In this document: positions 2,489-52,948 of the stretch, one piece after another | How positions within the stretch are numbered: position 1 is the stretch's first letter | Layout of the letters: each line of letters opens with the position of its first letter | IMG/VR virus record: IMGVR_UViG_2718218305_000006 | Source of the DNA: a virus | Lineage: Duplodnaviria > Heunggongvirae > Uroviricota > Caudoviricetes | Reading direction: 5' to 3' (one strand) | Length of the DNA: 64,000 nt | Notes under the pieces: model-generated | What the model saw: the letters and a program-made list of their open reading frames with translations, nothing else | What the model was told of the DNA's origin: nothing | Database searches by the model: none | Program-made: the position numbers and the translations under genes

Positions 2489-2514
2489 CTCAATCTGTTA
2501 TCCGGGGCTATATT
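2485..2514 (+). promoter_or_regulatory. candidate late promoter pR' (TTGACT-N17-CTATAT)
   Basis: -35 TTGACT overlaps the Q stop codon; 17-bp spacer; -10 CTATAT/TATATT. Confidence 0.45.
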
Positions 2515-2577
2515 CCTCACGCGCCAGCAAAATCTGGCGTCGGGATTAGCACCCCGGATGTTTACGGAGCGATATGA

Positions 2578-2597
2578 GACGCGCCCGCGTCTTTTTT
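2578..2597 (+). terminator. rho-independent terminator (tR'-like)
   Basis: GACGCG-CC-CGCGTC hairpin followed by TTTTTT, about 65 nt downstream of the candidate pR'. Confidence 0.5.
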
Positions 2598-2761
2598 CAT
2601 ATCGTTTGCACAGTCACATTCGCGATTTATGGCGGGCTGTGTGGGGGAGCCGAAAGGCTCGCCGGTTTCCGTACCCGGTAGTGCTAACCCCGCACAGTTC
2701 GCCACCACGATGATTAGCACCTGACGGTGGCGATAATGTCCAAATGTACGGAGTTATCGTT

Positions 2762-3593: not shown

Positions 3594-3659
3594 AAATGTC
3601 TCACAATTCAGGCGGTTGACTGTTGTCTGGTTTGCGGGGAGTTTGTTAAAAGAAACTGG

Positions 3660-3765
3660 CATGGTGAATCCCCCTGTGCGGAGGGGCAATCAGTGAGTAG
3701 GTATATGGGATAATCGCGGATTCAGGTGCTGGTACTGAATTCACCGGGAGGCACCCGGCACCATG
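3660..3765 (+). other. conserved 106-nt structured element upstream of nanS-p (copy 1)
   Basis: Bounded by CATGGTG..CACCATG; internal CCCCTGTGCGGAGGGG hairpin; second copy at 45760..45865. Confidence 0.3.
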
Positions 3766-4032
3766 CAAGAAAAAGAATGTGCATGCAAACATGCCCCTCT
3801 CCGGAGGGGCATTTTTTATGGGTAAAAAATGCCCGAATGGGTTCGGGCAATAGCATGAGATACTGATATTGTTGTGTTGTTATCGTGTGGATTTTAACCA
3901 GGGTTTATCAGGCTGCGCAACTGCGTGGCCTTTTTTCATTTCTTGGGCTGTAGTCCCCGTGTGTCATTCAGGCTTCCGGACTACAGCCCACTCCATATCT
4001 GATTTAATACACTATCCCGGCCGGGAGGAATA

Positions 4033-21715: not shown

Positions 21716-22413
21716 TGCAGGATATCCACGAAGAAAGTCTTAACGAGTCGGTAAAATCAGAGCAGTCACCGCGGGTGGTGCTCTGGGAAATTGACCTGAC
21801 GGTGCAGGGCGGTGAGCGCTATTTTTTCTGCAATGAGCTGAATGAAAAAGGGGAGGCGGTCACCTGGCAGGGGCGGCAATATCAGGCATACCCGATTGAC
21901 GGCAGTGGCTTTGAGATGAACGGGAAGGGCAGCAGTGCCAGACCGTCGCTGACGGTGTCCAATCTGTTTGGTCTGGTCACCGGGATGGCGGAGGACCTGC
22001 AGAGCCTGGTGGGGGCCACGGTGGTCCGCCGCCGGGTGTATGCCCGTTTTCTGGATGCGGTGAATTTTGTGGCGGGCAATCCGGAAGCGGACCCGGAGCA
22101 GGAGCTGAGCGACCGCTGGGTGGTGGAGCAGATGTCAGAGCTGACGGCCATGACAGCCTCGTTTGTGCTGGCAACACCGACGGAGACGGACGGGGCGCTG
22201 TTTCCTGGTCGCATCATGCTGGCGAACACCTGTATGTGGGATTACCGGGGAGATGAATGCGGGTATAACGGTCCTGCGGTGGCGGATGAGTTCGACAACC
22301 CCACCACGGATATCCGTAAGGACAGATGCAGCAAGTGCATGCGCGGGTGTGAGATGCGCGGCATGGTGGCTAATTTTGGCGGTTTCCTTTCCATTAATAA
22401 ACTTTCGCAGTAA
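21715..22413 (+). CDS. L: minor tail protein L
   Basis: 232 aa with C-terminal Cys cluster, lambda order. Confidence 0.85.
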   Translation: MQDIHEESLNESVKSEQSPRVVLWEIDLTVQGGERYFFCNELNEKGEAVTWQGRQYQAYPIDGSGFEMNGKGSSARPSLTVSNLFGLVTGMAEDLQSLVGATVVRRRVYARFLDAVNFVAGNPEADPEQELSDRWVVEQMSELTAMTASFVLATPTETDGALFPGRIMLANTCMWDYRGDECGYNGPAVADEFDNPTTDIRKDRCSKCMRGCEMRGMVANFGGFLSINKLSQ

Positions 22414-22423
22414 ATCCCGGTTT

Positions 22424-23167
22424 ATGACACAGACTGAATCAGCGATTCTGGCGCATGCCCGGCGGTGTGCGCCTGCGGAGTCGTGCGGCTTCGTGGTGAG
22501 AACGCCGGAGGGGGAGCGGTATATCCCTTGTGTGAATATCTCTGCAGAGCCGGAGGCGTATTTTCGTATTGCACCGGAAGACTGGCTGCGGGCAGAGATG
22601 CAGGGGGAGATTGTGGCACTGGTCCACAGTCATCCCGGTGGTCTGCCCTGGCTGAGCGAGGCCGACCGGCGGCTGCAGATAAAAAGTGCACTGTCCTGGT
22701 GGCTGGTCTGCCGGGGGGACATTCATAAATTCCGCTGTGTGCCACATCTGACAGGACGGCTCTTTGAGCACGGGGTGACGGACTGTTACACGCTGTTCCG
22801 GGATGCATACCATCTGGCGGGGACTGAAATGCCGGATTTTCATCGCGAGGATGACTGGTGGCGCAACGGCCAGAACCTGTACCTGGACAATATGGAGGGA
22901 ACGGGCTTTTACCGGGTGCCCCTGTCCTCTGCACAGGCGGGCGATATTCTGCTGTGCTGCTTTGGTGCTTCGGTACCGAACCATGCCGCCATTTACTGTG
23001 GCAACGGTGAGCTGCTTCACCATCTGCCTGAACAACTGAGTAAACGGGAGAGGTATTCCGAAAAATGGCAACGACGAACGCATTCTGTCTGGCGTCACCG
23101 CCACTGGCACGCATCTGCCTTCACGGGGATTTACAACGATTTGGCCGCCGCCTCAGCCTGTATGTGA
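22424..23167 (+). CDS. K: tail assembly protein K (MPN/NlpC-P60 domains)
   Basis: MTQTESAILAHARRCAPAESCGF..HSHPGG.. lambda K-like; the ORF-track upstream extension is not used. Confidence 0.85.
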   Translation: MTQTESAILAHARRCAPAESCGFVVRTPEGERYIPCVNISAEPEAYFRIAPEDWLRAEMQGEIVALVHSHPGGLPWLSEADRRLQIKSALSWWLVCRGDIHKFRCVPHLTGRLFEHGVTDCYTLFRDAYHLAGTEMPDFHREDDWWRNGQNLYLDNMEGTGFYRVPLSSAQAGDILLCCFGASVPNHAAIYCGNGELLHHLPEQLSKRERYSEKWQRRTHSVWRHRHWHASAFTGIYNDLAAASACM

Positions 23168-23742
23168 ACACGGCAGCGGAAGCCATCCGGGCGCTGTCGT
23201 TACAGGTGCCCGGATTCCGCCGTCAGATGAACGAAGGCTGGTACCAGATACGTATTGCCGGTGATGACACGGCACCGGAGGCGGTGTACGCCCGTCTTCA
23301 CGAACAGCTGGGTGAGGGAACGGTCATCCACATTGTGCCGCGACTGGCCGGGGCCGGAAAGGGTGGACTGCAGATTGTGCTGGGGGCGGCAGCCATCGTG
23401 GGCTCTTTCTTCACTGCCGGGGCATCGATGGCGTTATGGGGTTCAGCCCTGGCAGCCGGTGGTTTTTCTGCCACCACGATGCTGTTTTCTCTGGGGGCCA
23501 GCATGATTCTGGGTGGTGTGGCCCAGATGCTGGCCCCGAAGGCAAAAACACCGGATTACCGCGCAACGGATAACGGCAGACAGAACACGTACTTTTCGTC
23601 ACTGGACAACATGATTGCCCAGGGTAACCCGATGCCGGTGCCTTATGGTGAAATGCTGGTTGGTTCACGACGGATATCCCAGGACATCAGCACCCGTGAT
23701 GAGGGCGGAGACGGGAAAGTGGTGGTTATCGGGCGGGGATGA
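23065..23742 (+). CDS. I: tail assembly protein I
   Basis: 225 aa, ..ARICLHGDLQRFGRR..QNTYFSSLDNM..; overlaps the K 3' end as in lambda. Confidence 0.8.
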   Translation: MATTNAFCLASPPLARICLHGDLQRFGRRLSLYVNTAAEAIRALSLQVPGFRRQMNEGWYQIRIAGDDTAPEAVYARLHEQLGEGTVIHIVPRLAGAGKGGLQIVLGAAAIVGSFFTAGASMALWGSALAAGGFSATTMLFSLGASMILGGVAQMLAPKAKTPDYRATDNGRQNTYFSSLDNMIAQGNPMPVPYGEMLVGSRRISQDISTRDEGGDGKVVVIGRG

Positions 23743-23982
23743 AAATAAAAAAATCCCGCAGAGTTAGCGGAGCTGCGGGAGAGAACGATGAAGATTAACG
23801 TTATGGAGTTATTTTTCAGGCATCAAAAAAGTAACGCAGCGTCATTATTGCGGCTACAGGCAATTGCCGGAAATGTGAAGAGTTTCAGAAATTTTATTCC
23901 GTCATGACACAGGCACCCTCCGGGGTGCCTGTTGTTTTCTGGCATAAACAGATTCAGACATCAGACAGGAGAGGGGGACAGA

Positions 23983-26900
23983 GTGGGTAAAGGGGGCGGC
24001 AAGGGGCACACGCCGGTAGAGGCAAAGGACAATCTTAAGTCCACGCAGATGATGAGCGTGATTGACGCCATTGGTGAAGGGCCGATTGAAGGTCCGGTGA
24101 AGGGGCTGCAGAGTATCCTGGTGAACAAAACCCCGCTGACGGACACGGACGGTAATCCCGTGATACACGGTGTGACCGCGGTCTGGCGTGCCGGGGAGCA
24201 GGAGCAGACACCGCCGGAAGGTTTTGAGTCCTCCGGAGCTGAAACCGCACTGGGCGTGGAAGTGACGAAGGCAAAGCCGGTGACGCGCACCATTACGTCC
24301 GCGAACATTGACCGCCTGCGGGTCACCTTCGGGGTGCAGTCACTGGTGCAGACCACGTCAAAGGGTGACCGAAACCCGACATCCGTCCGCCTGCTGATTC
24401 AGTTACAGCGTAACGGTAACTGGGTGACGGAAAAGGATGTCACCATTAACGGCAAGACAACCTCGCAGTTTCTGGCGTCGGTGATTCTGGATAATCTGCC
24501 TCCCCGTCCTTTTAACATCCGGATGGTCAGGGAGACGGCGGACAGCACCACGGACCAGCTGCAGAATAAGACGCTGTGGTCGTCATACACCGAAATCATC
24601 GATGTGAAACAGTGCTACCCGAACACGGCTATTGTGGGGCTGCAGGTGGATGCGGAGCAGTTCGGCGGCCAGCAGATGACGGTGAACTACCATATCCGCG
24701 GTCGCATCATCCAGGTGCCGTCAAACTATGACCCGGAAAAACGCACGTACAGTGGTATCTGGGACGGTAGCCTGAAACCGGCATACAGCAATAACCCGGC
24801 CTGGTGCCTGTGGGACATGCTGACCCACCCGCGCTACGGAATGGGAAAACGCCTGGGGGCGGCGGATGTGGACAAGTGGGCGCTGTATGCCATTGCGCAG
24901 TACTGCGACCAGATGGTCCCTGATGGTTTCGGGGGCACAGAGCCGCGGATGACCTTTAATGCGTACCTGTCACAACAGCGTAAGGCGTGGGATGTGCTCA
25001 GTGATTTCTGCTCGGCGATGCGCTGTATGCCGGTATGGAACGGCCAGACGCTGACGTTCGTTCAGGACCGCCCGTCGGATGTGGTGTGGCCGTACACCAA
25101 CAGCGATGTGGTGGTGGATGATAACGGCGTGGGGTTTCGCTACAGCTTCAGCGCCCTGAAGGACCGCCACACGGCGGTGGAGGTGAATTACACCGACCCG
25201 CAGAACGGCTGGCAGACCTCCACGGAACTGGTGGAAGACCCGGAAGCCATACTGCGCTACGGGCGCAACCTGCTGAAGATGGATGCGTTCGGCTGCACCA
25301 GTCGCGGTCAGGCCCACCGTGCCGGGCTGTGGGTGATAAAGACCGGACTGCTGGAAACGCAGACGGTGGATTTCACGCTCGGGTCACAGGGGCTGCGTCA
25401 CACACCCGGTGACATTATTGAAATCTGTGATAACGACTATGCCGGGACCATGACCGGCGGACGTATCCTGTCCATCGATGCCGCCAGCCGCACCCTGACG
25501 CTGGACCGTGAGGTGACCCTGCCGGAGACCGGTGCCGCCACGGTGAACCTGATTAACGGCAGCGGTAAGCCGGTGAGTGTGGACATCACCGCACACCCCG
25601 CGCCGGACCGGATACAGGTCAGCACCCTGCCGGATGGCGTGGAGACATACGGTGTGTGGGGGCTCTCCCTGCCGTCACTGCGTCGTCGCCTGTTCCGCTG
25701 TGTCTCCATACGGGAAAACACGGACGGCACCTTTGCCATCACGGCGGTGCAGCACGTACCGGAAAAAGAAGCCATCGTGGATAACGGGGCCAGCTTTGAG
25801 CCGCAGTCAGGCACCCTGAACAGCGTTATTCCACCGGCAGTGCAGCACCTGACGGTGGAGGTGAGCGCGGCTGACGGTCAGTATCTGGCACAGGCGAAAT
25901 GGGACACGCCGCGGGTGGTGAAGGGTGTGCGCTTCAGTCTGCGCCTGACCAGCGGAAGCGGAGAAGACAGCCGTCTGGTGACCACCGCCATCACTGCGGA
26001 TACAGAGCATCGTTTCAGTGGTCTGCCGCCCGGGGAATACACCCTGACAGTCAGGGCAATTAACAGTTATGGCCAGCAGGGCGAACCGGCCACCACCACG
26101 TTCAGGATTAATGCACCTGCGGTACCCGCCACGATTGAGCTGACACCGGGCTATTTTCAGATAACAGCGGTCCCGCGTCTTGCGGTGTATGACCCGACGG
26201 TACAGTTTGAGTTCTGGTTTTCGGAGACAAAAATCGCAGACACATCTCAGGTGGAAACCTCTGCCCGTTATCTGGGGACCGGCAGTCAGTGGAGTGTATC
26301 CGGCCCGCACATTAAGCCCGGGAAGGATTTCTGGTTTTACGTGCGCAGCGTCAACCTGGTGGGGAAATCTGCTTTTGTGGAAGCCAGTGGCCGGGCCAGC
26401 AATGATGCAGAAGGGTATCTGGGGCTGTTTCGGGAAAAAATAGGAAAACTGCATCTGGCTCAGGGGCTGTGGGAGCTGATAGACAACAGCCAGCTTGCGG
26501 ATGAGATGGCGGAGATGAAGACCACCATCACCGAAACCCGCAATGAAATCACACAGACGGTCAGTAAAACGCTGGAAGACCAGAGCGCCACCATACAGCA
26601 GATACAGCGCGTGCAGAAGGACACAAATGATGACCTGGCTGCGCTGTACATGCTGAAGGTTCAAAAAACGAAAGACGGCATTCCCTATGTGGCCGGGATT
26701 GGTGCAGGGATTGAGGATACTGATGGCCAGCCACTGAGCAACATACTGCTGCTGGCTGACCGTATCGCGATGATAAATCCGGAGAGCGGCAACAGCACGC
26801 CGTTATTTGTGGCGCAGGGGAATCAGCTGTTCATGAACGACGTGTTCCTGAAACGACTGTTTGCGGTGAGCATCACGTCATCCGGCAATCCTCCGGCATT

Positions 26901-30140: not shown

Positions 30141-30347
30141 TTAGCGAACAAACCACTCGTCAGCAGACTCCCAGGTATCTTTCAGCGTCTCCTGAACAAA
30201 AGTTTTTGCAGAATCTTTATCGGCGGTGCGAGTAACTGAAAGGCCATCGTTGCTGGTGGATTTGATGATCACTTCTACATCGTCATAACGTTTACTGACA
30301 CGTCGCAGCATTTCTTGTTGCAGGGCAGGAACAGAACCTTTTGGCAT
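30141..30347 (-). CDS. DinI-like protein
   Basis: 68-aa product from an internal ATG; C-terminus ..[20 protein letters not shown] resembles the DinI family end (..ILQETWESADDWFV). Confidence 0.6.
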
Positions 30348-30560
30348 TTTGTTGATTTTGGCTGCGGGGTATCTGTGGGGCATATATGGGACATAAAAAG
30401 GCCTCAAATAAACAGCAAAATCGAGATTAGGGATTTTTAGAAAAAATACAACCATCTGAAAAAACTTAGAAAACACCCAAAAACCCACAGAATAGTAAAA
30501 AACATCTATGAATTATGGATTTCAAGAGTCATTCAATCTAACTAATTGATAAATAAAAAA

Positions 30561-31112
30561 TTAACTTTTCATCGCTTCGTTATGGGGCATGGTTGGGGCA
30601 AACTCGCTTAACTGTGTATTTAACAGCGTTACCTGCGCATTATTATTTTCTGACATCCATTTCCCGTACACCTGAAACACCATTTGCGCATCTGCATGGC
30701 CCATCTGGTTTGCAATGAATGCCGGGTTAGCTCCTGCTGTTAACGACCAGCAGGCATAAGTGTGTCTCGACTGATACGATTTGCGATGGCGGATTCCGGC
30801 ACGCTTTACCGCTGCGTCCCACATCTGCCTTATTGAGTCAACGGTAAAATGGTCGCCATAATTTTTTACTTTCGCTGACACTTCAGGTTGAAAAACAAAG
30901 GTACATTTTTGTTTCTCTGTTCTGCCGAATTCTCTGAGGTGAACATCGATGATATGCTCTTTGCTCAGTCTCGTTAGTGCCATCTGACTCCGGAGAGCGT
31001 CGATTGCGGGCTTAATAAGGTGAATCACACGATTGGTTCCCGCCTGTGTTTTTGGTACTGTAAAACGGTCTTTTGCCAGATTTCTTCTGATTATCATTCT
31101 GCCATTGCGCAA
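30561..31112 (-). pseudogene. int: tyrosine integrase remnant, C-terminal catalytic half only
   Basis: ..TVPKTQAGTNRVIHL..SRHTYACWSLTAGANPAFIANQMGHADAQMVFQVYGKWM carries K/H-R-H-Y box residues; in-frame stop 6 codons upstream of the start; arm- and core-binding domains absent. Confidence 0.7.
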
Positions 31113-32338
31113 GATGGTTGCGGTTTTTCTTCATCATTTTCTTCTTCTGTTTCCTGCTTAGCAGACAGTTCGCGGTTAACTTCTTCCAGGATATCTTTTT
31201 CCGGTGTATGTCGTGCAGCAGTGAGAGTTTCCTTGCTGGGGTTCTCGTGATCAGTCTCCGTTAAGTAGGCGTTGATATACCCCTGAAGGCGTCCCGGGTA
31301 GTGATAAAACTCAGGGTGAGCGCTCCGGATAAGTGCAAAAATAGCGGCGCGGGAATAGTCCAGAATACCCGGGGTTGCGCGAAGTGCTGCGGACCATTCT
31401 TTGAACGGACTTTCTCTTTTCAGGACGATTTCTTTTGCGCGACGATAAACGCTGCCCGGAATTTCATAAATATTAAAATCCATCGGAAGTGTGGCTGCTG
31501 CAATCTCCACATCCAGCGTATCGAAGGTGTGTACTAAATTCGGATTGCGATCGGTTTTGTTCCCGCCACCGGCATTTGCACCGGAAGCCGTACGGGTGAT
31601 ACGCGAAACACGATTTCCTTTCATCCACTCTTTTGTCAGCAGACCCCGATCAGTGTAGTCAGCGTCCAGGTATGCCTCGAAAAAAGCAGTTATCAGTCCC
31701 AGGTCTGAATTACCGGGATTAGGGAAAACTTTGTCAGTGTCGCGTACCAGTTTGTGAAGGTCGCGAATCTCCAGCGGGTCGAGCAGCTTTGTTTTGTGAG
31801 AAATGGCCAGGGCAGTAACAGCCGGCAGTTCTTCCGCCCGTGCTATATGTAATGCCTGAAGTTCTTCCCGTGCAACGTGCGTTACTGGTTTTTCGCTGCC
31901 GTGTTGCGCAAGCCAGCGAATGGGCAGCTCCTGACCAGAAACCGGCAGGAGCATATTCTCCTCAATCTCCGTCATGTCTTCGCCGTTGACGTTGGTATTG
32001 TCAGTACTGGCTGGTTTCTCCTGCACGGAGGGAGAGGGCGCGATAAATACCATTGTAATGCCATCTTCCCCGCCTTTTTCGTATCGGTTGCAGAATTCGG
32101 TATCAAACACGCCTTCAGGTGGAAGGTCATTCACAACGGGTAAATGGACGCGAACGGGTTTTTTAAAGTCGTCTTCATCATAATCGTTGTCATCCATTGC
32201 GGTAATGCAGCGGGAGATGGCAACAGATAATTTTTTTGCTGTAGTCCAGTAAAAACCACCTTTAATTCCCAGACGTTTTCTGACTTTGTCATTTTTTGCT
32301 TCGCAATATAGCGCAAATTCTTCTTTATCAGTGCTCAT
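31094..32338 (-). CDS. hypothetical acidic protein (414 aa), ydfE-like position in a Qin-type operon
   Basis: Intact 1245-nt ORF overlapping the integrase remnant by 19 nt in another frame; Asp/Glu-rich stretches; no motif recognised. Confidence 0.55.
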   Translation of the reverse strand: MSTDKEEFALYCEAKNDKVRKRLGIKGGFYWTTAKKLSVAISRCITAMDDNDYDEDDFKKPVRVHLPVVNDLPPEGVFDTEFCNRYEKGGEDGITMVFIAPSPSVQEKPASTDNTNVNGEDMTEIEENMLLPVSGQELPIRWLAQHGSEKPVTHVAREELQALHIARAEELPAVTALAISHKTKLLDPLEIRDLHKLVRDTDKVFPNPGNSDLGLITAFFEAYLDADYTDRGLLTKEWMKGNRVSRITRTASGANAGGGNKTDRNPNLVHTFDTLDVEIAAATLPMDFNIYEIPGSVYRRAKEIVLKRESPFKEWSAALRATPGILDYSRAAIFALIRSAHPEFYHYPGRLQGYINAYLTETDHENPSKETLTAARHTPEKDILEEVNRELSAKQETEEENDEEKPQPSCAMAE

Positions 32339-32430
32339 TGATAAACCTCATTACAGATTTAAGGGTGAACAAATCCCTGCCATTGCTGGCATTTTTAATC
32401 CGTTGGTATGGTGTTAATATGGCTGGAGGG

Positions 32431-32619
32431 TTATCCAGCCGGTGTTTCGTTATTCAGGTACAGCGATACTTTTTTTACCGGGAGGCATTCACCAGAAATT
32501 TTTTGCTCGTCTCTTGCCTGGAGGCAGGATTCTTTACTGGCATAAATTCCGGTAATCACATTCTGTGATTCACCCGTTATAAGAAAAACCGTCATCATCA
32601 GTGCAAATGCTGAAGTCAT
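32431..32619 (-). CDS. YdfD-like small protein with N-terminal hydrophobic segment
   Basis: 62 aa, MTSAFALMMTVFLITG..; ATGA overlap with dicB; position as ydfD in the Qin dicB operon. Confidence 0.5.
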   Translation of the reverse strand: MTSAFALMMTVFLITGESQNVITGIYASKESCLQARDEQKISGECLPVKKVSLYLNNETPAG

Positions 32620-32804
32620 TGACGTTCTCCGAAAATACCAAGTTCAAGAAGAGCAATTCGGGAAAGTATGGAATTATCATTGAGCAGATAAGGCTCATAT
32701 TTCCTCATGTTAATGGCATCTTCAGTAAACTCCCGGTTACTGAGCAGAACACCAATATCAAAACAACCTTCAGACGTATTAACGTTTGGTAATAACGTTT
32801 CCAT
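32616..32804 (-). CDS. dicB: cell division inhibitor DicB-like
   Basis: 62 aa, METLLPNVNTSEGCFDIGVLLSNREFTEDAIN.. matches recalled E. coli DicB N-terminal half; lies just downstream of DicF. Confidence 0.7.
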   Translation of the reverse strand: METLLPNVNTSEGCFDIGVLLSNREFTEDAINMRKYEPYLLNDNSILSRIALLELGIFGERQ

Positions 32805-32973
32805 TATCGCGTCCTCAACAATGAATTTTGTGATGCAGTGCCTGGTGCCTCCAGGTGACGTTAACCAGTTAACAATTAACGCCGGATACAGAGAATCCAC
32901 CCATAACACTGTTTTTGGTTTTAACTGTTCCGCGTGCGCTTAGCCGCATTCACCGCATCACAAAATTCACTTT

Positions 32974-33031
32974 AAAAAGGGCGGCAGAGCAGCCACGGAG
33001 TAAAACTGATACCGCCAAACGTCACCAGAAA
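32974..33031 (-). ncRNA. dicF: DicF small RNA
   Basis: Minus strand reads TTTCTGGTGACGTTTGGCGGTATCAGTTTTACTCCGTGGCTGCTCTGCCGCCCTTTTT, matching recalled DicF with its terminator hairpin. Confidence 0.7.
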
Positions 33032-33368
33032 ATTGATAACAGAGGGCGTTGCAGCGGGGTTGTCACTTAAGCGTATGGTCAACCTGACAACCCGGTGTCC
33101 TCAATGGGGAAGGAATAACCCCGCCATACTTACCGCCGCGCCATTTCGCGGAGTGCCACAACCGGAAGCGCACGTTCGAAGAAATCTAACGACAAGCCTT
33201 CTAAGGGAAAGAGCTTCGCCGTACGCTTTCGCGTTATGCACTGACTTTTCAGGGAAATATCCTTTCAGTAAACTGTCAGTACCGGATTCTTATCCGTGTC
33301 CGGCGCACGACCACACGTGACAGCGTGTTGGTCTCCATTTTTAACCCAGAACCTCAATGGAGGATAAA

Positions 33369-33578
33369 ATGCCAAACAAAAAAAGAAATCCGCTTATTGA
33401 AAAACAGATTGAATGCCTGGTAAATCAACTCAGGCAATCAGGGTTATTAAAAACTCATTCAGAGTTGAGGCTCACAGAATCAGCATTCGACGATAAATTA
33501 AATAATGTCCTTTATAATGGCATTATTGATTTTAATCGTTCTGTTGGTCGCCGCGGCCCTGCTGGTGTTTCCTTATAA
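33369..33578 (+). CDS. hypothetical small protein (69 aa), convergent with dicB operon
   Basis: GGAGG RBS 6 nt upstream of ATG; an overlapping hydrophobic 32-aa ORF (33517..33615) is an alternative. Confidence 0.3.
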   Translation: MPNKKRNPLIEKQIECLVNQLRQSGLLKTHSELRLTESAFDDKLNNVLYNGIIDFNRSVGRRGPAGVSL

Positions 33579-34229
33579 TTACCAGTCAATCCAGAGTGGA
33601 CCGTGTTCAGCGTAAATATAACTGTACACATCCAGATTATATTTGTGGTCTGTTAAGAACAGGCCGCAAATACATGCCGAAGCTTCCAGTGCAGCGGCTC
33701 TGTTACTGAATAACCATGTAGCAACATTCCAGCGTTTTTCTGCATCCCAGTCTTTCTCAAGGCCTGATACCATGAAGAAACCGTTAGTGTTGCCATCAAA
33801 TAATTCTGTTTCCAAATTTTTAAGCAATGCCTGATGGACTCTTGCCAGGTATTCCGCCGGAATTTCGCCACGAATTCTGATGAGATTGTCATAAACAAAC
33901 ATGTTCCCCGCATATGGCGATTTTTCTTTCTTGTTTTTTAAACCAGCATCATGAGCAAACTGATCAATTTCTTCTTCCGTTGGTTTCGTATTGATGTTTT
34001 GCGCTGTCGTTTCTGCAATTTTATTTGCCACACTCTCTGAGTCGTGTTTATTTATAGACGCACAGAAATACAATCCGGTAAACGCATCGCGCACATTACG
34101 AGCCATATTATCAGTGTCTTTTTTCGTTACCGATTCCAATTCAAGTTCGTTCAGACGATGACGAAGTGTGTGTGCTGCAATCTCCTGGATTGAAGGAGGT
34201 AAATCTTTAAATTCCATCGTCAACCTCAT
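33579..34229 (-). CDS. hypothetical protein (216 aa), second gene of the coupled pair beside cI
   Basis: ATG overlaps the stop of the upstream 77-aa gene (TGATG); no family recognised. Confidence 0.6.
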   Translation of the reverse strand: MRLTMEFKDLPPSIQEIAAHTLRHRLNELELESVTKKDTDNMARNVRDAFTGLYFCASINKHDSESVANKIAETTAQNINTKPTEEEIDQFAHDAGLKNKKEKSPYAGNMFVYDNLIRIRGEIPAEYLARVHQALLKNLETELFDGNTNGFFMVSGLEKDWDAEKRWNVATWLFSNRAAALEASACICGLFLTDHKYNLDVYSYIYAEHGPLWIDW

Positions 34230-34462
34230 CAGTCAGTGTTTCTGGCTAACCAGCGACGCGCGCCAGCTTCAGTTTTAAACGTTTTGCTTTTGGTATACGT
34301 CATCGCGGTGAACGTACCGTCCTGGTTGGGGAACACGCCACATACCAGAGATTCGTTGTTGCCAAGATTGAGCGTATCCATGTTGACCTCATTTCCCCTT
34401 AACGCCGGGGTAGCGGAACAAAAACCTGCTGCATAGTTATTAAAGTTGAACCCTGCCGTCAT
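34229..34462 (-). CDS. hypothetical protein (77 aa), first gene downstream of cI
   Basis: Same strand as cI, separated by a 211-bp gap; coupled to the 216-aa gene. Confidence 0.5.
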   Translation of the reverse strand: MTAGFNFNNYAAGFCSATPALRGNEVNMDTLNLGNNESLVCGVFPNQDGTFTAMTYTKSKTFKTEAGARRWLARNTD

Positions 34463-34673
34463 GTTCTTACGCCTCGGGCTGGCTACTTAACCCCTGACCA
34501 CTGCCTGGTAACTCGAAGTATTGCCCTGCATTCTGTGGGGCGGGGTGAGGGAATGAATGAAGTTTAGAAAAACGAACATTTAAGGTCAATGTTTTTTTAT
34601 CAAAACATTTTAAGCAGGCAGCTGTTACGCCATCACTACGATGGCATACAGTTAATCAAATAGATGAGGTTGG

Positions 34674-35312
34674 TTAAATATCTTGTTGAATTTTAAAGCA
34701 TACTCCCAATATGCAAGATAGATCATCCAGCATAATTGAAGGGTAGCGAGGATTCGTGGGGACTAAAAGAATATCCGGCCCTTCTATCTCCAGTTTGCGA
34801 ATGACAGGCGTTGTGGTCCCTTTGGGTAAGGCAAGGACAATATTTCCTGGTTGTACGATTCGATCGGGATCAACAAAAACTGTTGAACCATTTGGGATGG
34901 AAACTCCACCACCAGATGTCGACATACTGTCACTCTCTAGAACAACAGCAAAGGTATTGGCCGGGATTTCTCCGACAAGCTGCACACAAGAGGTTATTGA
35001 GGAATTTTTCATATAATCACTCCAGCTTGCTGCCTGCTGAAGTGATAGTAGCGGAACCGTTTTTATCGGCGGTAAAGATAGATCAAGCGAATCACCTGTA
35101 TTTAACTCTCCTCCATTAAGAAGCCAATTTTCGTTTACTTTCAATATCTTTGCCAGTGAACTTATGTAACGCGAGGACGGCGCTCCTCCACCGTTCATCC
35201 ATTGACTTACGGAGCCTTTTGATGCGCCAGTGGCATTGACAAGGTCTTTGCCTTTCAAGTTTAGCGCATGCATACGTTGGGTTATGCGTTCAGATATTGT
35301 TTGCTTGTTCAT
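34674..35312 (-). CDS. cI: CI-type repressor (HTH + S24 LexA-like peptidase domain)
   Basis: 212 aa; N-terminal HTH (..GASKGSVSQWMNG..) and C-terminal S24-like segment; divergent from cro-like gene. Confidence 0.85.
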   Translation of the reverse strand: MNKQTISERITQRMHALNLKGKDLVNATGASKGSVSQWMNGGGAPSSRYISSLAKILKVNENWLLNGGELNTGDSLDLSLPPIKTVPLLSLQQAASWSDYMKNSSITSCVQLVGEIPANTFAVVLESDSMSTSGGGVSIPNGSTVFVDPDRIVQPGNIVLALPKGTTTPVIRKLEIEGPDILLVPTNPRYPSIMLDDLSCILGVCFKIQQDI

Positions 35313-35403
35313 GTTTTGATTTTAAAACACAGATGGTTTTGTTTCTTGACTTTCTTTGGTTTTGATTATTAAACTTTTGGCGTTCAGTTTTATGGAGCGA
35401 CTC
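35313..35403. promoter_or_regulatory. immunity-region intergenic (divergent pRM/pR with operators, inferred)
   Basis: 91-bp AT-rich spacer between divergent cI and cro-like genes containing TTGACT and partial palindromes. Confidence 0.4.
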
Positions 35404-35646
35404 ATGAAAAAATCAGAAGTATTAGGCTATTTTGGCGGAGTTGTTAAAACAGCCGCCGCTCTAGGAACGTCAAAAACCACAGTCAGCATGTGGGGGGAAG
35501 ACGTTCCGTGGAAATGGGCGTTGCTAATTCAGGCAGTCACTGCCGGGGCGCTCAAATATGAGTTACACATACCGACGGTTGTCATTCCCGATTCTGATCA
35601 TAATCCGCCTTCTAACCAAGGGGGGATTCATGAAAATCAAGCATGA
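35404..35646 (+). CDS. cro: Cro-like DNA-binding protein
   Basis: 80 aa, GGAG RBS, HTH-like ..AAALGTSKTTVSMW..; first rightward gene opposite cI. Confidence 0.65.
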   Translation: MKKSEVLGYFGGVVKTAAALGTSKTTVSMWGEDVPWKWALLIQAVTAGALKYELHIPTVVIPDSDHNPPSNQGGIHENQA

Positions 35647-40118: not shown

Positions 40119-40408
40119 CCTGGCCTGAAGCATTCACAACGGTAGGAATTGCGATGGCGGTGGCGCTGGTGGTGTATTCGATTTGCCGCTGGGGATAAAA
40201 ACGGTTTGCGGGAAAAGGATAGTTAAGTAGAATTGCTGCGGGTGCTTGAGGCTATCTGCCTCGGGCATGAACACCAACGGCAGATAGAGAAAAGCCCCAG
40301 TTAACATTACGCGTCCTGCAAGACGCTTAACATTAATCTGAGGCTCAATCCATGCTGAACACATGTAGGTTAGCCTCTTACGTGCCGAAAGGCAAGGAGA
40401 AGCAGGCT

Positions 40409-40564
40409 ATGAAGCAGCAAAAGGCGATGTTAATCGCCCTGATCGTCATCTGTTTAACCGTCATAGTGACGGCACTGGTAACGAGGAAAGACCTCTGCGA
40501 GGTGCGAATCCGAACCGGTCAGACGGAGGTCGCTGTCTTCGTAGACTACGAATCTGAGAAGTAA
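40409..40564 (+). CDS. hok: Hok/Gef-family type I toxin (overlapping mok-like frame from 40352)
   Basis: MKQQKAMLIALIVICLTVIVTALVTRKDLCEVRIRTGQTEVAVFVDYESEK parallels Hok (..LTRKSLCEIRYRDG..EVAAFMAYE..). Confidence 0.7.
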   Translation: MKQQKAMLIALIVICLTVIVTALVTRKDLCEVRIRTGQTEVAVFVDYESEK

Positions 40565-45725: not shown

Positions 45726-45759
45726 TTTTTTTGTTTGCTGTTTATTAAAAACACTTCTG

Positions 45760-45865
45760 CATGGTGAATCCCCCTGTGCGGAGGGGCGATCAGCAACCAG
45801 GTATATGGGATAATCGCGGATTCAGGTGCTGATACTGAATTCACCGGGAGGCACCCGGCACCATG
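45760..45865 (+). other. conserved 106-nt structured element upstream of nanS-p (copy 2)
   Basis: Same termini CATGGTG..CACCATG and core as 3660..3765, with a cluster of substitutions in the middle. Confidence 0.3.
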
Positions 45866-46038
45866 CTTTGCCACAAAAGTGTTGTTTCTGTTTTTCTCAA
45901 ACTATCATCGTTATCCCTTTATTTCCGGCTGCGCATGGCGCGGCTTTTTTTTACGACCAGCCACTGGCAGATGGTCATCCTGTGATTTGATTCCGGTTCC
46001 GGCTTTTTAACTCTGTTCCTGTACACGGGAGAAATTCG

Positions 46039-50316: not shown

Positions 50317-50462
50317 TGGGGTGGCTAATGATATCAGATAAACTCATAACGCTGGTGAAGAGCCTCTGTGTACTTGTCGGCATTTCATTTTCACTAATGC
50401 TGGTTGCTCTTTTTCTTTCCATGGCCTGGATGGCGTTGACTTCGGCAGGGCTGGTGGGGTGA
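50316..50462 (+). CDS. small membrane protein (48 aa)
   Basis: ATG overlaps the antirepressor stop (TGATG) and its stop overlaps the Rz GTG; MGWLMISDKLITLVKSLCVLVGISFSLMLVALFLSMAWMALTSAGLVG. Confidence 0.25.
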   Translation: MGWLMISDKLITLVKSLCVLVGISFSLMLVALFLSMAWMALTSAGLVG

Positions 50463-50932
50463 GCATAAACCGAATGCTTTCCGCGTTTACCGTTATTCTG
50501 CTGGTGGTCTGTGGTGCGCTTAGTCTGGGGCTGAATCATTACCGCGATAACGCCATAACCTACAAAGAGCAGCGCGATAAAAAAGTCAGTGAGCTGGAGC
50601 TGGCAAATGCAACCATTACTGATATGCAGCAGCGCCAGCGTGATGTTGCTGCACTTGATGCCAGATACTCGAGGGAATTAGCTGATGCGAGAGCTGAAAA
50701 TGAAACTCTGCGTGCTGATGTTGCCGCTGGTCGTAAGCGCCTGCGCATCAACGCCAACTGTCCAGGCTCCTTGCGTAAAGCCCCCATCACCTCCGGCGTG
50801 GATAATGCAACCGGTCCCCGACTGGCAGAAGCCGCTGAACGGGATTATTTCATCCTCAGAGAACGGCTGATGGCAATGCAGAAGCAACTGGAAGGAGCAC
50901 AGGAATATATCCGTACCCAGTGTATACCGTGA
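50459..50932 (+). CDS. Rz: i-spanin Rz
   Basis: 157 aa, homologous to 8034..8501. Confidence 0.8.
   Translation: MSINRMLSAFTVILLVVCGALSLGLNHYRDNAITYKEQRDKKVSELELANATITDMQQRQRDVAALDARYSRELADARAENETLRADVAAGRKRLRINANCPGSLRKAPITSGVDNATGPRLAEAAERDYFILRERLMAMQKQLEGAQEYIRTQCIP
50700..50870 (+). CDS. Rz1: o-spanin Rz1, embedded in Rz
   Basis: [15 protein letters not shown] lipobox, embedded in the +1 frame. Confidence 0.65.
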   Translation: MKLCVLMLPLVVSACASTPTVQAPCVKPPSPPAWIMQPVPDWQKPLNGIISSSENG

Positions 50933-51395
50933 TGTTTTGTTACGAAGGTGTTACCGGTAACGTTAAGGTAATTTAACAAAGAGTCAGTTCCGGACTTTAT
51001 AGTGTGCTCAGTTCATGGCCAAAAACGATTTCTGTGATAAATATTTTGAATATTATTTACAGGTAAATGGAGTGGGGCACATGGATAGAAATATTACAAT
51101 AGAGTATGAAGTATATGCCCGTATTGTATGGGCAGAGAAGGCAAAAACATGGTAATTCCGTGTGTTGCCATGATACCTGACTGGCAGAATTGTTGTTTGG
51201 TTTTGAGTATATAGTCAGCGTCTTTTGTTCGGTAATTGCTCTTTCAATTAAAATGCCAGATATGATTTGCTTTTCTTTGTTGTTTAGTTTTTTTGTATAT
51301 TATTTTTATTGTTTTTATATAATTAGTTTTTTATTGTTGTCTTATTAAGGACGGTAAATTCAGGATGGCAGTCTGTAGATAAACGGAGGTTACTT

Positions 51396-51710
51396 ATGCT
51401 ACATGATCACCTGGCAGAATGTCTGGAGAAAAAAGGACTGTACCGGAGAGCAGCTGAACGATGGGCAAAAGTGATGGTACAGCTAAGTGATGACCAGAAA
51501 AGAAAAGTGGCGGCACAGAAACGAGCAGAGTGTTTGCGTAAGGCGCGCCGGACTCCGGTTTCACCGGTGAACCTGACCGAAATAAAACAAGCGGTCAACA
51601 GACTACATTCTGAGTTGGGAATGGGATTTGAAGAGCGGCGGGTATTCCGACGATATAAAGGGACAGGAGAACAGAATACGTCCGGAAACGCGCGGTCAAA
51701 AAAATGCTAA
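51396..51710 (+). CDS. PerC-family transcriptional activator (Pch-like)
   Basis: 104 aa, ..LAECLEKKGLYRRAAERWAKVM.. resembles PerC/Pch; preceded by a very AT-rich tract. Confidence 0.55.
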   Translation: MLHDHLAECLEKKGLYRRAAERWAKVMVQLSDDQKRKVAAQKRAECLRKARRTPVSPVNLTEIKQAVNRLHSELGMGFEERRVFRRYKGTGEQNTSGNARSKKC

Positions 51711-51791
51711 AAAATATCTGAGAGCGTTATTGCCTGTTACCATAAGAAAAAGCGACTTTAGTGGTCGCTTTTTGTGTCATATATAAGTCGT

Positions 51792-52016
51792 TTAAGTAAA
51801 CCTGTCTGAACAGGTTCTCTGGTCGTGTTTGTCTTTGTTGGGTACAAATTGAGAATATTTTTCATTAATTAATCTTCTTCTGCAGGCTTCAATAACCCAC
51901 GCTGAAAAATTTCCTGAACCTTTCAGATCAAGAGCGATGTTAATTTGTTCAATCATCTGGTTTGGAAATCGGATGTTGCGGGTTGTTGTTCTGCGGGTTC
52001 TGTTCTTTGATGACAT
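51792..52016 (-). CDS. YlcI/YnfO-family small protein (DUF3950-like)
   Basis: ..KNRTRRTTTRNIRFPNQMIEQINIALDLKGSGNFSAWVIEACRRRL.. matches recalled DLP12 YlcI. Confidence 0.5.
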   Translation of the reverse strand: MSSKNRTRRTTTRNIRFPNQMIEQINIALDLKGSGNFSAWVIEACRRRLINEKYSQFVPNKDKHDQRTCSDRFT

Positions 52017-52149
52017 AATGTTGCCCCATATTCAGTGTTGCTGATTTGTATTATCTGAAGTTGCTTTTACGTTAATTTGATGCAGATCAATTAATACGAT
52101 ACCTGCGTCATAATTGATTATTTGACGTGGTTTGATGGCGTAGATGCAC

Positions 52150-52400
52150 GTTGTGACATGTAGATGATAATTATTATCATTTTGCGGGTCCTTTCCGGCG
52201 ATCCGACCGGTTACGGGGCGGCGACCTCGCGGGTTTTCGCTATTTATGAAAATTTTCCGGGGAAAATCATGTCGGTACTTCTCGAACATAACTATTTGTT
52301 TTTTCTAATATCGAATCCGTAAAGGTCCGACATGAAAACGCCTGAAAAAGTCATTTTCGGGCACTTTCATGTCGGACCCTGTATTTGTTGTGAGACTGTT
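52150..52400. other. cos: lambda-type cos site (cosN with 12-nt cohesive end at 52206..52217, plus cosB)
   Basis: GGGCGGCGACCTCGCGGGTTTTCGCTATTTATGAAAATTTTCCGG matches the lambda left end; 197 nt upstream of Nu1. Confidence 0.65.
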
Positions 52401-52402
52401 TC

Positions 52403-52922
52403 ATGAAGGTTAATAAAAAGAAACTTGCCGAAATTTTCAACGTGGATCCGCGAACGATTGAACGCTGGCAGTCTCAGGGGCTCCCTTGCGTCTCCGGAGG
52501 TGGTAAGGGCGTTGAATCTGTATTTGATACCGCCACGGCAATTCAGTGGTATGCGCAGAGGGAAGCTGATATCGAAAATGAAAAACTCCGTAAAGAGGTT
52601 GAGGATTACAGGGCTGCCAGCGAGGCAGATCTCCAGCCTGGGACTATTGAGTACGAACGCCATCGACTTACGCGTGCGCAGGCTGACGCCCAGGAGCTGA
52701 AGAATGCCAGAGACTCCGCAGAAGTGGTGGAAACCGCATTCTGTACTTTCGTGCTGTCACGGATCGCAGGTGAAATTGCCAGTATTCTTGACGGGATCCC
52801 TCTCTCAGTACAGCGGCGTTTTCCGGAACTGGAAAACCGACATGTTGATTTCCTGAAACGGGATATTATCAAAGCCATGAACAAAGCAGCCGCGCTGGAT
52901 GAACTGATACCGGGGTTGCTGA

Positions 52923-52948
<26 letters not shown>
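52403..52948 (+). CDS. nu1: terminase small subunit Nu1
   Basis: 181 aa, [28 protein letters not shown].. near-identical to lambda Nu1 as recalled. Confidence 0.9.

What the first reader, a model, noticed from the sequence alone, without database searches (positions are those of the whole stretch)
51250..51710. PerC-like activator with strongly AT-rich upstream region
A 104-aa PerC/Pch-like ORF lies between the lysis genes and cos, preceded by about 100 bp of very AT-rich DNA. Pch-type regulators on lambdoid prophages are known to activate the LEE regulator ler, so this hints at an attaching-effacing pathotype background.
Basis: partly seen in the sequence, partly recalled or inferred. Interest (0 to 1): 0.45.

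Follow-up and report, generated by a model that had tools for sequence, protein, structure and literature searches.

The report
pchB, a known prophage virulence activator

Summary
Observation confirmed. Window 51396..51710 (+) encodes a 104-aa protein matching Pfam PerC over its full length (E 5e-44). The 100 nt upstream (51247-51346) are the lowest-GC stretch of the whole 64-kb window: 17% GC against a mean of 52.7%. The gene lies between Rz/Rz1 and cosN (52216).

Identity is settled. Window 30240-64000 is 99.96-99.98% identical to prophage Sp11 of O157:H7 Sakai. The CDS is base-for-base Sakai pchB (ECs_2182).

Published work shows that PchA/B/C activate the LEE1/ler promoter by displacing H-NS.

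The pathotype inference holds. Among 5,426 complete E. coli genomes, 672 carry this gene and 696 carry ler. The union is 698, so 670 of 672 pch-positive genomes have LEE.

Additional findings:
- The gene looks like a self-contained inserted unit ("moron") with a bidirectional terminator.
- The AT-rich block exists as two discrete alleles, pchB-type and pchA/C-type.
- The same prophage carries a DicF sRNA gene. DicF's 5' end is complementary to a coding-region strand predicted to sequester the pchB ribosome-binding site, which fits the published DicF-pchA model.
- The PerC fold is predicted to be all-helical, with no helix-turn-helix and no solved relative.

Novelty: already known. Interest: low.

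The parts
51229..51349 (+). AT-rich, T-rich upstream block of pchB. It is presumed to be the promoter/regulatory region. This copy is the pchB-type allele.
   Evidence: It has the lowest GC of the whole window (17% over 51247-51346). It is the only strongly divergent segment between Sakai pchB and pchA/pchC, whose flanks are nearly identical. Across E. coli genomes there are two discrete classes: 530 records at >=95% identity and 151 records at only 80-90%.
51318..51323 (+). Perfect TATAAT hexamer, a candidate -10 element found only in the pchB-type allele. The promoter is not assigned.
   Evidence: The custom scan found only a weak -35 partner, TTGTAT/TGTATA at 18-19 nt spacing. The pchA-type allele has GCGTGG at this position. 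The standard promoter scan found no site on this strand upstream of pch.
51385..51400 (+). Shine-Dalgarno GGAGG (51385-51389) and start codon (51396-51398). This is the 5' strand of a predicted translation-blocking helix.
   Evidence: Sequence. In the ensemble fold of the mRNA, with an assumed 5' end at 51331, it pairs with 51481-51495 at probability about 0.75.
51396..51710 (+). pchB coding sequence, 104 aa, a PerC-family transcriptional activator of LEE1/ler.
   Evidence: Pfam PerC E 5.4e-44. The CDS is identical to Sakai ECs_2182. RefSeq protein WP_001302717.1 is annotated as 'PerC family transcriptional regulator'.
51481..51500 (+). Coding-region strand (codons 29-35) predicted to pair with the SD/AUG. 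It is also complementary to the 5' end of DicF.
   Evidence: Helix with 51385-51400 at P about 0.75. DicF nt 1-18 forms a duplex with 51481-51500 at -17.8 kcal/mol. Forcing 51490-51500 to stay unpaired lowers pairing of the first two SD G residues from 0.88/0.85 to 0.34/0.38. This matches the published DicF-pchA model (PMC7769764, PMC7873438).
51747..51773 (.). Bidirectional intrinsic terminator hairpin (AAAAAGCGACU-loop-GGUCGCUUUUU) between the convergent pchB and ylcI/ynfO-like genes.
   Evidence: dG -14.7 kcal/mol, z -3.57, and 0 of 200 shuffles fold as well. It is identical in Sakai pchA, pchB and pchC.
51792..52016 (-). YlcI/YnfO (DUF3950) gene, convergent with pchB. It is the conserved right-hand neighbour of pch.
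   Evidence: Pfam DUF3950 E 1.8e-18 and NCBIfam YlcI_YnfO_N. The same pch-ylcI pairing is found in O111, O103, O80:H26, dog and monkey isolates next to different terminase types.
50459..50932 (+). Rz (with Rz1 nested at 50685..50870), the last lysis genes and the left boundary of the pch insert.
   Evidence: Pfam Phage_lysis E 1.3e-46.
52216..52227 (+). cosN-like GGGCGGCGACCT, the right landmark.
   Evidence: Exact match. Lambda-like phages align only from window 51882 to 52260, that is ylcI to cos and not pch.
32979..33030 (-). DicF sRNA gene in the early region of the same prophage. DicF is the published translational activator of pchA.
   Evidence: Rfam RF00039, 75 bits against a gathering score of 48, full length.

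Best explanation
The feature is pchB, one of the three near-identical group-1 pch genes (pchA/B/C) of enterohaemorrhagic E. coli. Here it sits on an Sp11-type defective lambdoid prophage.

Gene organisation. It forms a small insert between the lysis cassette and cos. The insert consists of an AT-rich regulatory block, a leader with a strong ribosome-binding site, a 104-aa CDS and its own bidirectional terminator. It points the same way as the late operon.

Protein function (from the literature on the identical protein). The protein is a small all-helical PerC-family regulator. It binds the H-NS-coated LEE1 regulatory region, displaces H-NS/StpA/Hha and so de-silences ler. Ler then turns on the LEE type III secretion system and non-LEE effectors.

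Regulation. The first two layers come from the literature; the third is inferred here.
1. Transcription is driven from the AT-rich upstream region, which responds to LrhA and other host regulators.
2. Translation is controlled by an SD-sequestering helix formed with codons 29-34, which the sRNA DicF opens. A DicF copy sits in the same prophage.
3. Late-operon read-through on SOS induction is expected.

What is shown here: the gene's identity, its anatomy, its co-occurrence with LEE, the two upstream alleles, and the predicted RNA helix with DicF complementarity.

What is taken from the literature: activation of ler, H-NS displacement, LrhA dependence and the DicF effect.

What is inferred: that the AT-rich block is the promoter and H-NS/LrhA target, and that the DicF mechanism shown for pchA applies to pchB.
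For: Family: Pfam PerC over full length.

Identity: the CDS is identical to Sakai pchB, and Rz-to-nu1 differs at 2 of 1,470 nt. Identity to Sp11 is 99.96% over 28.4 kb and 99.98% over its left end. Sakai annotates ECs_2182 as pchB, 'PchABC family transcriptional regulator'.

LEE co-occurrence: 670 of 672 pch-positive genomes carry ler.

Gene unit: terminator hairpin with z -3.57. Lambda and other deposited phages lack the pch segment at this position, and only 4 of 50,697 phage records hold any PerC relative.

AT-rich block: it is a compositional extreme. AT-richness is kept in both alleles and even upstream of a 78.6%-identical plasmid homologue whose flanks are unrelated.

RNA control: SD-CDS helix at P about 0.75 and a DicF duplex of -17.8 kcal/mol on the same strand. 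DicF gene at 32979..33030.

Literature: Pch relieves H-NS silencing at LEE1 (PMC4764244). pchABC are required for full LEE expression, and LrhA activates pchA/pchB (PMC4456613, PMC13012123). Group-1 pch genes are SOS-enhanced (PMC6265319). DicF frees the pchA RBS (PMC7769764, PMC7873438).
Against: - No sigma-70 consensus promoter could be assigned upstream, and the transcription start is unknown to me.
- H-NS and IHF motif scans are at chance level.
- The first 221 nt of the transcript fold no better than shuffles (z 0.36), so the RNA helix rests on a full-length fold with an assumed 5' end.
- Two substitutions flank the SD in pchB relative to pchA, so the DicF result for pchA may not transfer quantitatively.
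- The source genome of the window is not in hand.
- The left-hand prophage is not Sakai's Sp12, so the strain is not Sakai.
Confidence: 0.93

Rival explanations
1. The ORF is a PerC-family paralogue with a non-LEE role, like pchD or pchE, which act on curli, flagella and biofilm rather than on ler.
For: Group-2 and group-3 pch genes exist on other O157 prophages and barely affect LEE (PMC6265319, PMC7369912). Even group-1 Pch affects csgD and biofilm (PMC6265319).
Against: The CDS is 100% identical to Sakai pchB and differs by one residue each from PchA (L6V) and PchC (V58M). All 686 of 687 records matching this CDS are >=99% identical, and almost all of those genomes carry ler.
Confidence: 0.03
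2. The AT-rich stretch has no regulatory function. It is a compositional scar of the recombination that brought the gene in, and pchB is expressed only by read-through of the phage late transcript on induction.
For: - The block's sequence is not conserved between the pchB-type and pchA/C-type alleles.
- No consensus promoter was found.
- Motif scans are at chance level.
- The gene has the orientation of the late operon.
- Group-1 pch genes rise on SOS induction (PMC6265319).
Against: - Extreme AT/T-richness is retained in every allele, including upstream of a plasmid homologue in an unrelated context.
- Each allele is itself tightly conserved, at >=98.5% or about 81% with nothing in between.
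- Published work reports pch transcription in uninduced cells controlled by LrhA, Lrp/butyrate and NtrC/sigma-S (PMC4456613, PMC10714755, PMC13012123).
Confidence: 0.1
3. The 52-aa ORF at 51190..51348, which spans the AT-rich block, is a real small hydrophobic protein, and the AT-richness reflects its coding.
For: An open frame with a TTG start exists.
Against: Single-nucleotide indels between alleles break the frame. There is no Pfam or NCBIfam hit. It is not annotated in any RefSeq record examined. Phe-rich 'hydrophobicity' is what T-rich DNA gives in any frame.
Confidence: 0.02

Closest known systems
PchB (ECs_2182) of E. coli O157:H7 Sakai prophage Sp11, with its paralogues PchA (ECs_1091, Sp4) and PchC (ECs_2737, Sp14)
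   Same: The CDS is identical to pchB. It has the same flanks from Rz to nu1 (2 differences in 1,470 nt), the same prophage backbone (99.96%), the same pchB-type AT-rich allele and the same terminator.
   Different: Nothing in the gene unit differs. The neighbouring prophage to the left is not Sakai's Sp12, so the host strain differs. Relative to PchB, PchA has L6V and PchC has V58M. Both carry the other AT-rich allele plus three leader substitutions, two of which flank the SD.
PerC of typical EPEC (perABC operon on the EAF plasmid, e.g. pMAR2 of E2348/69)
   Same: Same Pfam family. Identity is 47% over residues 2-88. It shares the AExLExxGLYRRAAxRW motif and the same target, the LEE1/ler promoter (PMC4456613, PMC4764244).
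   Different: PerC is plasmid-borne, is the third gene of an operon under PerA control, and is shorter. Per the literature, it is needed for LEE expression only under some conditions, whereas pch genes are essential in EHEC (PMC4764244).
Lambdoid-phage morons such as bor and lom of lambda
   Same: It is a small accessory gene with its own terminator, inserted at a fixed position of the late region. It is absent from related phages and benefits the lysogen.
   Different: An independent promoter is not demonstrated here. The product is a regulator of an unlinked chromosomal island rather than a surface or exclusion protein.
Ler and other H-NS anti-silencers
   Same: The functional logic is the same. 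It is a horizontally acquired small protein that relieves H-NS silencing at AT-rich virulence promoters (PMC4764244).
   Different: There is no H-NS-like domain. The predicted fold is a TPR-like helical hairpin followed by a basic helix. It has no solved relative.

Membership tests
PerC family (Pfam PF06069) | Full-length match to the family profile above the curated cut-off | tested here: met
   148.8 bits against a cut-off of 22.6, E 5.4e-44, profile positions 1-89 of 90.
PerC family (Pfam PF06069) | Conserved N-terminal motif D4, A7, L10, E11, G14, R17-R18-A19-A20, R22-W23 and C46, in a protein of about 90-105 aa | tested here: met
   All nearly invariant columns of a 54-member alignment are present in the window protein.
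Group-1 Pch (PchA/B/C) of EHEC | Near-identity to Sakai PchA/B/C, 104 aa | tested here: met
   The CDS is identical to pchB. It is one residue from PchA and one residue from PchC.
Group-1 Pch (PchA/B/C) of EHEC | Location on a lambdoid prophage between Rz/Rz1 and the ylcI-cos-terminase region | tested here: met
   The same arrangement is found in five other lineages.
Group-1 Pch (PchA/B/C) of EHEC | Occurs in LEE-positive strains | tested here: met
   670 of 672 pch-positive complete genomes carry ler. LEE in the window's own genome could not be checked.
Group-1 Pch (PchA/B/C) of EHEC | Activates the LEE1/ler promoter by relieving H-NS silencing | not testable with these tools
   Taken from the literature on the identical protein family (PMC4764244, PMC4456613). 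It needs a reporter assay.
Phage moron | Own terminator, and absence from otherwise homologous phages at the same site | tested here: met
   Terminator with z -3.57. Lambda-like phages align only to the ylcI-cos part. PerC relatives occur in 4 of 50,697 phage records.
Phage moron | Own promoter active in the lysogen | tested here: inconclusive
   No consensus promoter was found. A perfect TATAAT at 51318 lacks a good -35. The literature reports regulated expression in uninduced cells (PMC4456613).
DicF-activated mRNAs (pchA model) | SD sequestered by a coding-region strand that DicF can pair with | tested here: met
   Prediction only. Helix 51385-51400: 51481-51495 at P about 0.75, and DicF nt 1-18 duplex with 51481-51500 at -17.8 kcal/mol. 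The 5' end of the mRNA was assumed and no experiment was done.

The most novel reading that the evidence does not exclude
The confident AlphaFold model (pLDDT above 84 for residues 1-75) shows no helix-turn-helix or other recognised DNA-binding fold. Its only structural neighbours are TPR-like protein-interaction hairpins. So Pch/PerC may relieve silencing mainly by contacting a protein of the nucleoprotein complex (H-NS/StpA/Hha or RNA polymerase), with the basic third helix giving only non-specific DNA affinity.

A second, milder reading is also open. Sp11 may carry a self-contained circuit of DicF sRNA and pchB, and the two discrete AT-rich alleles may be the cis determinant of the reported differential control of pchA and pchB.
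Probability: 0.15. Interest if true: 0.45.

Novelty: already known. Interest (0 to 1): 0.1.

Why it matters
pchB is a textbook link between prophage cargo and the LEE pathogenicity island. Its presence marks the window as coming from an attaching-effacing E. coli, almost certainly of the O157:H7 lineage.

Nothing about the gene itself is new. The results that may be useful to others are these:
- The near-perfect genome-level co-occurrence of group-1 pch with ler: 670 of 672 pch-positive genomes and 670 of 696 ler-positive genomes.
- The two-allele structure of the AT-rich upstream block.
- The predicted TPR-like, non-HTH fold of a family that has no solved structure.

Tried and rejected
- Sigma-70 promoter scan of 50900-52450 found no site upstream of pch. 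A relaxed custom scan gave only weak candidates.
- H-NS high-affinity motif and IHF consensus scans were at chance level.
- Rfam, at both gathering and E-value thresholds, found no RNA family in 50900-52300 apart from chance miRNA-like hits at cos.
- The fold of the first 221 nt of the transcript was not better than shuffles (z 0.36).
- Whole-molecule RNAduplex of DicF against the mRNA gave unrealistically long duplexes and was discarded.
- Single-sequence AlphaFold gave pLDDT 50 and was unusable.
- The word-indexed homologue search returned only 16 close relatives.
- PDB searches by sequence and by profile found nothing. Foldseek against PDB found nothing below E = 2.
- The primary papers by Honda 2009, Iyoda & Watanabe 2004, Abe 2008 and Melson & Kendall 2019 are not held. 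Their content is cited only through reviews and later papers.
- The 52-aa ORF across the AT-rich block was rejected as coding.

Full report

Yes. An ATG-initiated ORF runs from 51396 to 51710 on the + strand and encodes 104 aa. A GGAGG Shine-Dalgarno lies six bases before the ATG. The protein matches Pfam PerC (PF06069) from end to end at 148.8 bits against a cut-off of 22.6, E 5.4e-44.

The DNA just upstream is strikingly AT-rich. Positions 51247-51346 have 17% GC and 51289-51348 have 10% GC. At window sizes of 60, 100 and 150 nt this is the lowest-GC segment of the entire 64-kb window. The 100-nt mean is 52.7% with sd 7.3%. The stretch is 59% T on the coding strand, with several T5-T7 runs.

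On the left lie the holin, the endolysin, a P22 antirepressor-like gene and Rz/Rz1 (50459..50932). On the right lie a DUF3950/YlcI-YnfO gene on the opposite strand (51792..52016), a lambda-type cosN (GGGCGGCGACCT at 52216), nu1 (52403..52948) and terminase A.

**2. What is it?**

It is pchB.

- Megablast of 50940-52400 against 5,426 complete E. coli genomes gives 99.9% full-length matches in O157:H7 and O121 strains, annotated 'PerC family transcriptional regulator | YlcI/YnfO family protein'.
- I fetched the three Sakai loci that carry pchA (ECs_1091, Sp4), pchB (ECs_2182, Sp11) and pchC (ECs_2737, Sp14). I aligned the Rz-to-nu1 interval of each with the window.
- The window equals pchB in every CDS position and differs at 2 of 1,470 positions overall.
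- PchA differs by L6V and PchC by V58M.
- BLAST of the whole window shows that 35611-64000 is 99.96% identical to Sp11, with 11 mismatches and no gaps. Window 30240-35610 is 99.98% identical to the Sp11 left end, including the truncated integrase and recE.

**3. Family relations**

- PerC of EPEC E2348/69 (plasmid pMAR2) is 47% identical over residues 2-88, E 1e-17.
- A 78.6%-identical homologue sits on an IncF plasmid of O55:H7.
- More distant PerC-family genes occur on plasmids of E. albertii, Salmonella, Klebsiella and Pantoea.
- The family is small. Only 84 representatives reach E <= 1e-3 among 1.84 billion 50%-identity clusters.
- Their alignment shows a near-invariant N-terminal motif, D4, A7, L10-E11, G14, R17-R18-A19-A20, R22-W23 and C46. 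The window protein has all of these.
- Only 4 of 50,697 deposited phage genomes hold any PerC relative. One of those is a fragment from EDL933.
- Lambda-like phages align only to the ylcI-cos portion (window 51882-52260) and not to pch.

**4. Anatomy of the unit**

- A hairpin lies 37 nt after the stop codon: AAAAAGCGACU-UUAGU-GGUCGCUUUUU (51747-51773), dG -14.7 kcal/mol, z -3.57. An A-run precedes it and a T-run follows it. It sits between the convergent pchB and ylcI genes, so it looks like a bidirectional intrinsic terminator. It is identical in pchA, pchB and pchC.
- The gene points the same way as the late operon. Read-through from pR' on induction is therefore expected. This fits the report that group-1 pch genes are SOS-enhanced (PMC6265319).
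- The pch-ylcI pair sits in the same position in O111:H8, O103, O80:H26, dog and monkey isolates, next to different terminase modules.
- Together with its absence from related phages, this is the architecture of a moron. I could not assign its promoter. The standard scan found nothing. A relaxed scan found only a perfect TATAAT at 51318-51323 with a poor -35.

**5. The AT-rich block**

- In the paralogue alignment, the first 300 nt after Rz, the last 60 nt of leader and the CDS are nearly identical. About 85 nt inside the AT-rich block are strongly divergent between pchB and pchA/pchC, with single-base indels.
- Adding five other lineages shows two main alleles. The pchB-type is found in the window and in O111:H8. 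The pchA-type is found in Sakai pchA, dog D1, O80:H26 and O103, and pchC is a variant of it. One further divergent form occurs in monkey isolate A25.
- A genome-wide query of 51200-51395 gives a bimodal result. There are 530 records at >=95% identity and 151 records whose best match is 80-90%. Nothing lies in between.
- AT/T-richness is retained in all forms, and even upstream of the plasmid homologue whose flanks are unrelated.
- Composition is therefore conserved while sequence is not. That is what is expected for an H-NS-bound or curved regulatory region. It also offers a cis basis for the published 'differential regulation of PchA and PchB' by LrhA (Honda 2009, cited in PMC4456613 and PMC13012123; I could not read the primary paper).
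- This step is inference. H-NS and IHF motif scans were at chance level.
- The 52-aa ORF that spans the block (51190..51348) is not coding, because the indels between alleles break its frame.

**6. How the product works**

This section rests on the literature about the identical protein.

- PchA/B/C are required for full expression of ler, for LEE expression and for adherence (PMC4456613, PMC6265319).
[quoted passage not shown] It reduces H-NS occupancy at LEE1 in vivo and in a reconstituted system, so it is an anti-silencer (PMC4764244).
- That paper notes that Pch lacks homology to known DNA-binding proteins.

I tested this structurally.

- No PDB relative was found by sequence or by profile.
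- AlphaFold with a 54-sequence alignment gives a confident model for residues 1-75 (block mean pLDDT 84-95). It has four helices (5-13, 16-29, 33-50, 61-73) and a disordered basic C-terminus.
- Foldseek finds nothing below E = 2.

**7. Post-transcriptional control**

- Reviews of Melson & Kendall 2019 state that the pchA coding region contains an anti-SD that sequesters the ribosome-binding site, and that DicF pairs there to activate translation under low oxygen (PMC7769764, PMC7873438).
- In the window's pchB mRNA, folded from an assumed 5' end at 51331, the SD and start codon (51385-51400) pair with codons 29-34 (51481-51495) at probability about 0.75.
- The window's own DicF gene lies at 32979..33030 on the minus strand (Rfam 75 bits). 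DicF nt 1-18 are predicted to pair with 51481-51500 at -17.8 kcal/mol.
- Holding 51490-51500 unpaired lowers pairing of the first two SD G residues from 0.88/0.85 to 0.34/0.38.
- So the published mechanism plausibly applies to pchB, and both partners lie on one prophage.
- Caveats: the 5' end is assumed, a shorter fold was not significant, and pchB has two substitutions flanking the SD relative to pchA.

**8. The pathotype inference**

- The pch CDS is found in 672 of 5,426 complete genomes, with a median of 3 copies and a range of 1-5.
- Sakai ler is found in 696 genomes.
- A concatenated pch+ler query matches 698 genomes. The intersection is therefore 672 + 696 - 698 = 670.
- So 99.7% of pch-positive genomes carry ler, and 96.3% of ler-positive genomes carry a group-1 pch.
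The window's own genome could not be inspected.

**9. Verdict**

The feature is a known, named and well-studied gene.

Novelty: already known. Interest: low.

The minor additions are the co-occurrence numbers, the two-allele AT-rich block, DicF and pchB lying on the same prophage with a predicted pairing site, and the predicted non-HTH, TPR-like fold.

Noticed in passing
window 32979..33030 (-), with the dicB ORF at 32616..32909 (-): A full-length DicF sRNA gene (Rfam 75 bits) lies in the early region of the same Sp11-type prophage that carries pchB. Its 5' end is complementary to pchB codons 29-35, the strand predicted to sequester the ribosome-binding site.
   Followed up: partly
window 51015..51155 (+): A 46-aa ORF between Rz and pchB matches PHROG 2157 over its full length (E 1e-37). 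It is intact in the pchA, pchB and pchC loci. It is not annotated in the RefSeq records examined. Its function is unknown.
   Followed up: partly
window 30561..31112 (-) and 31094..32338 (-): The integrase and recE-like genes of the Sp11-type prophage are truncated, as in the Sakai pseudogenes ECs_2217 and ECs_2216. pchB therefore rides on an immobilised, decaying prophage.
   Followed up: partly
[not shown]
   Followed up: partly
window 2508..2709, 3630..3885, 40240..40414, 45730..45902: Several prophage-borne regulatory RNAs were detected: isrK and C4 antisense RNA, STnc100 (two copies), the anti-GcvB sRNA AgvB (3824..3885, minus strand), and sok antitoxin RNA next to a hok/mok gene.
   Followed up: no
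E. coli genome collection; locus L012: Group-1 pch occurs at 15 plasmid places, for example the 94-kb NZ_CP027549.1. A 78.6%-identical homologue lies on IncF plasmid pDEC5B-4 of O55:H7. That copy has AT-rich DNA upstream as well, although its flanks are unrelated.
   Followed up: partly
E. coli genome collection: Two pch-positive genomes lack a megablast-detectable ler, and 26 ler-positive genomes lack a group-1 pch. These exceptions were not identified individually.
   Followed up: no
locus L004 (Sakai Sp4) 22131..24700: In Sakai Sp4 the pchA-lysis segment is inverted relative to the late operon and abuts IS629, which removes the ylcI-cos region downstream of pchA. The three paralogues therefore sit in different transcriptional contexts.
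   Followed up: no
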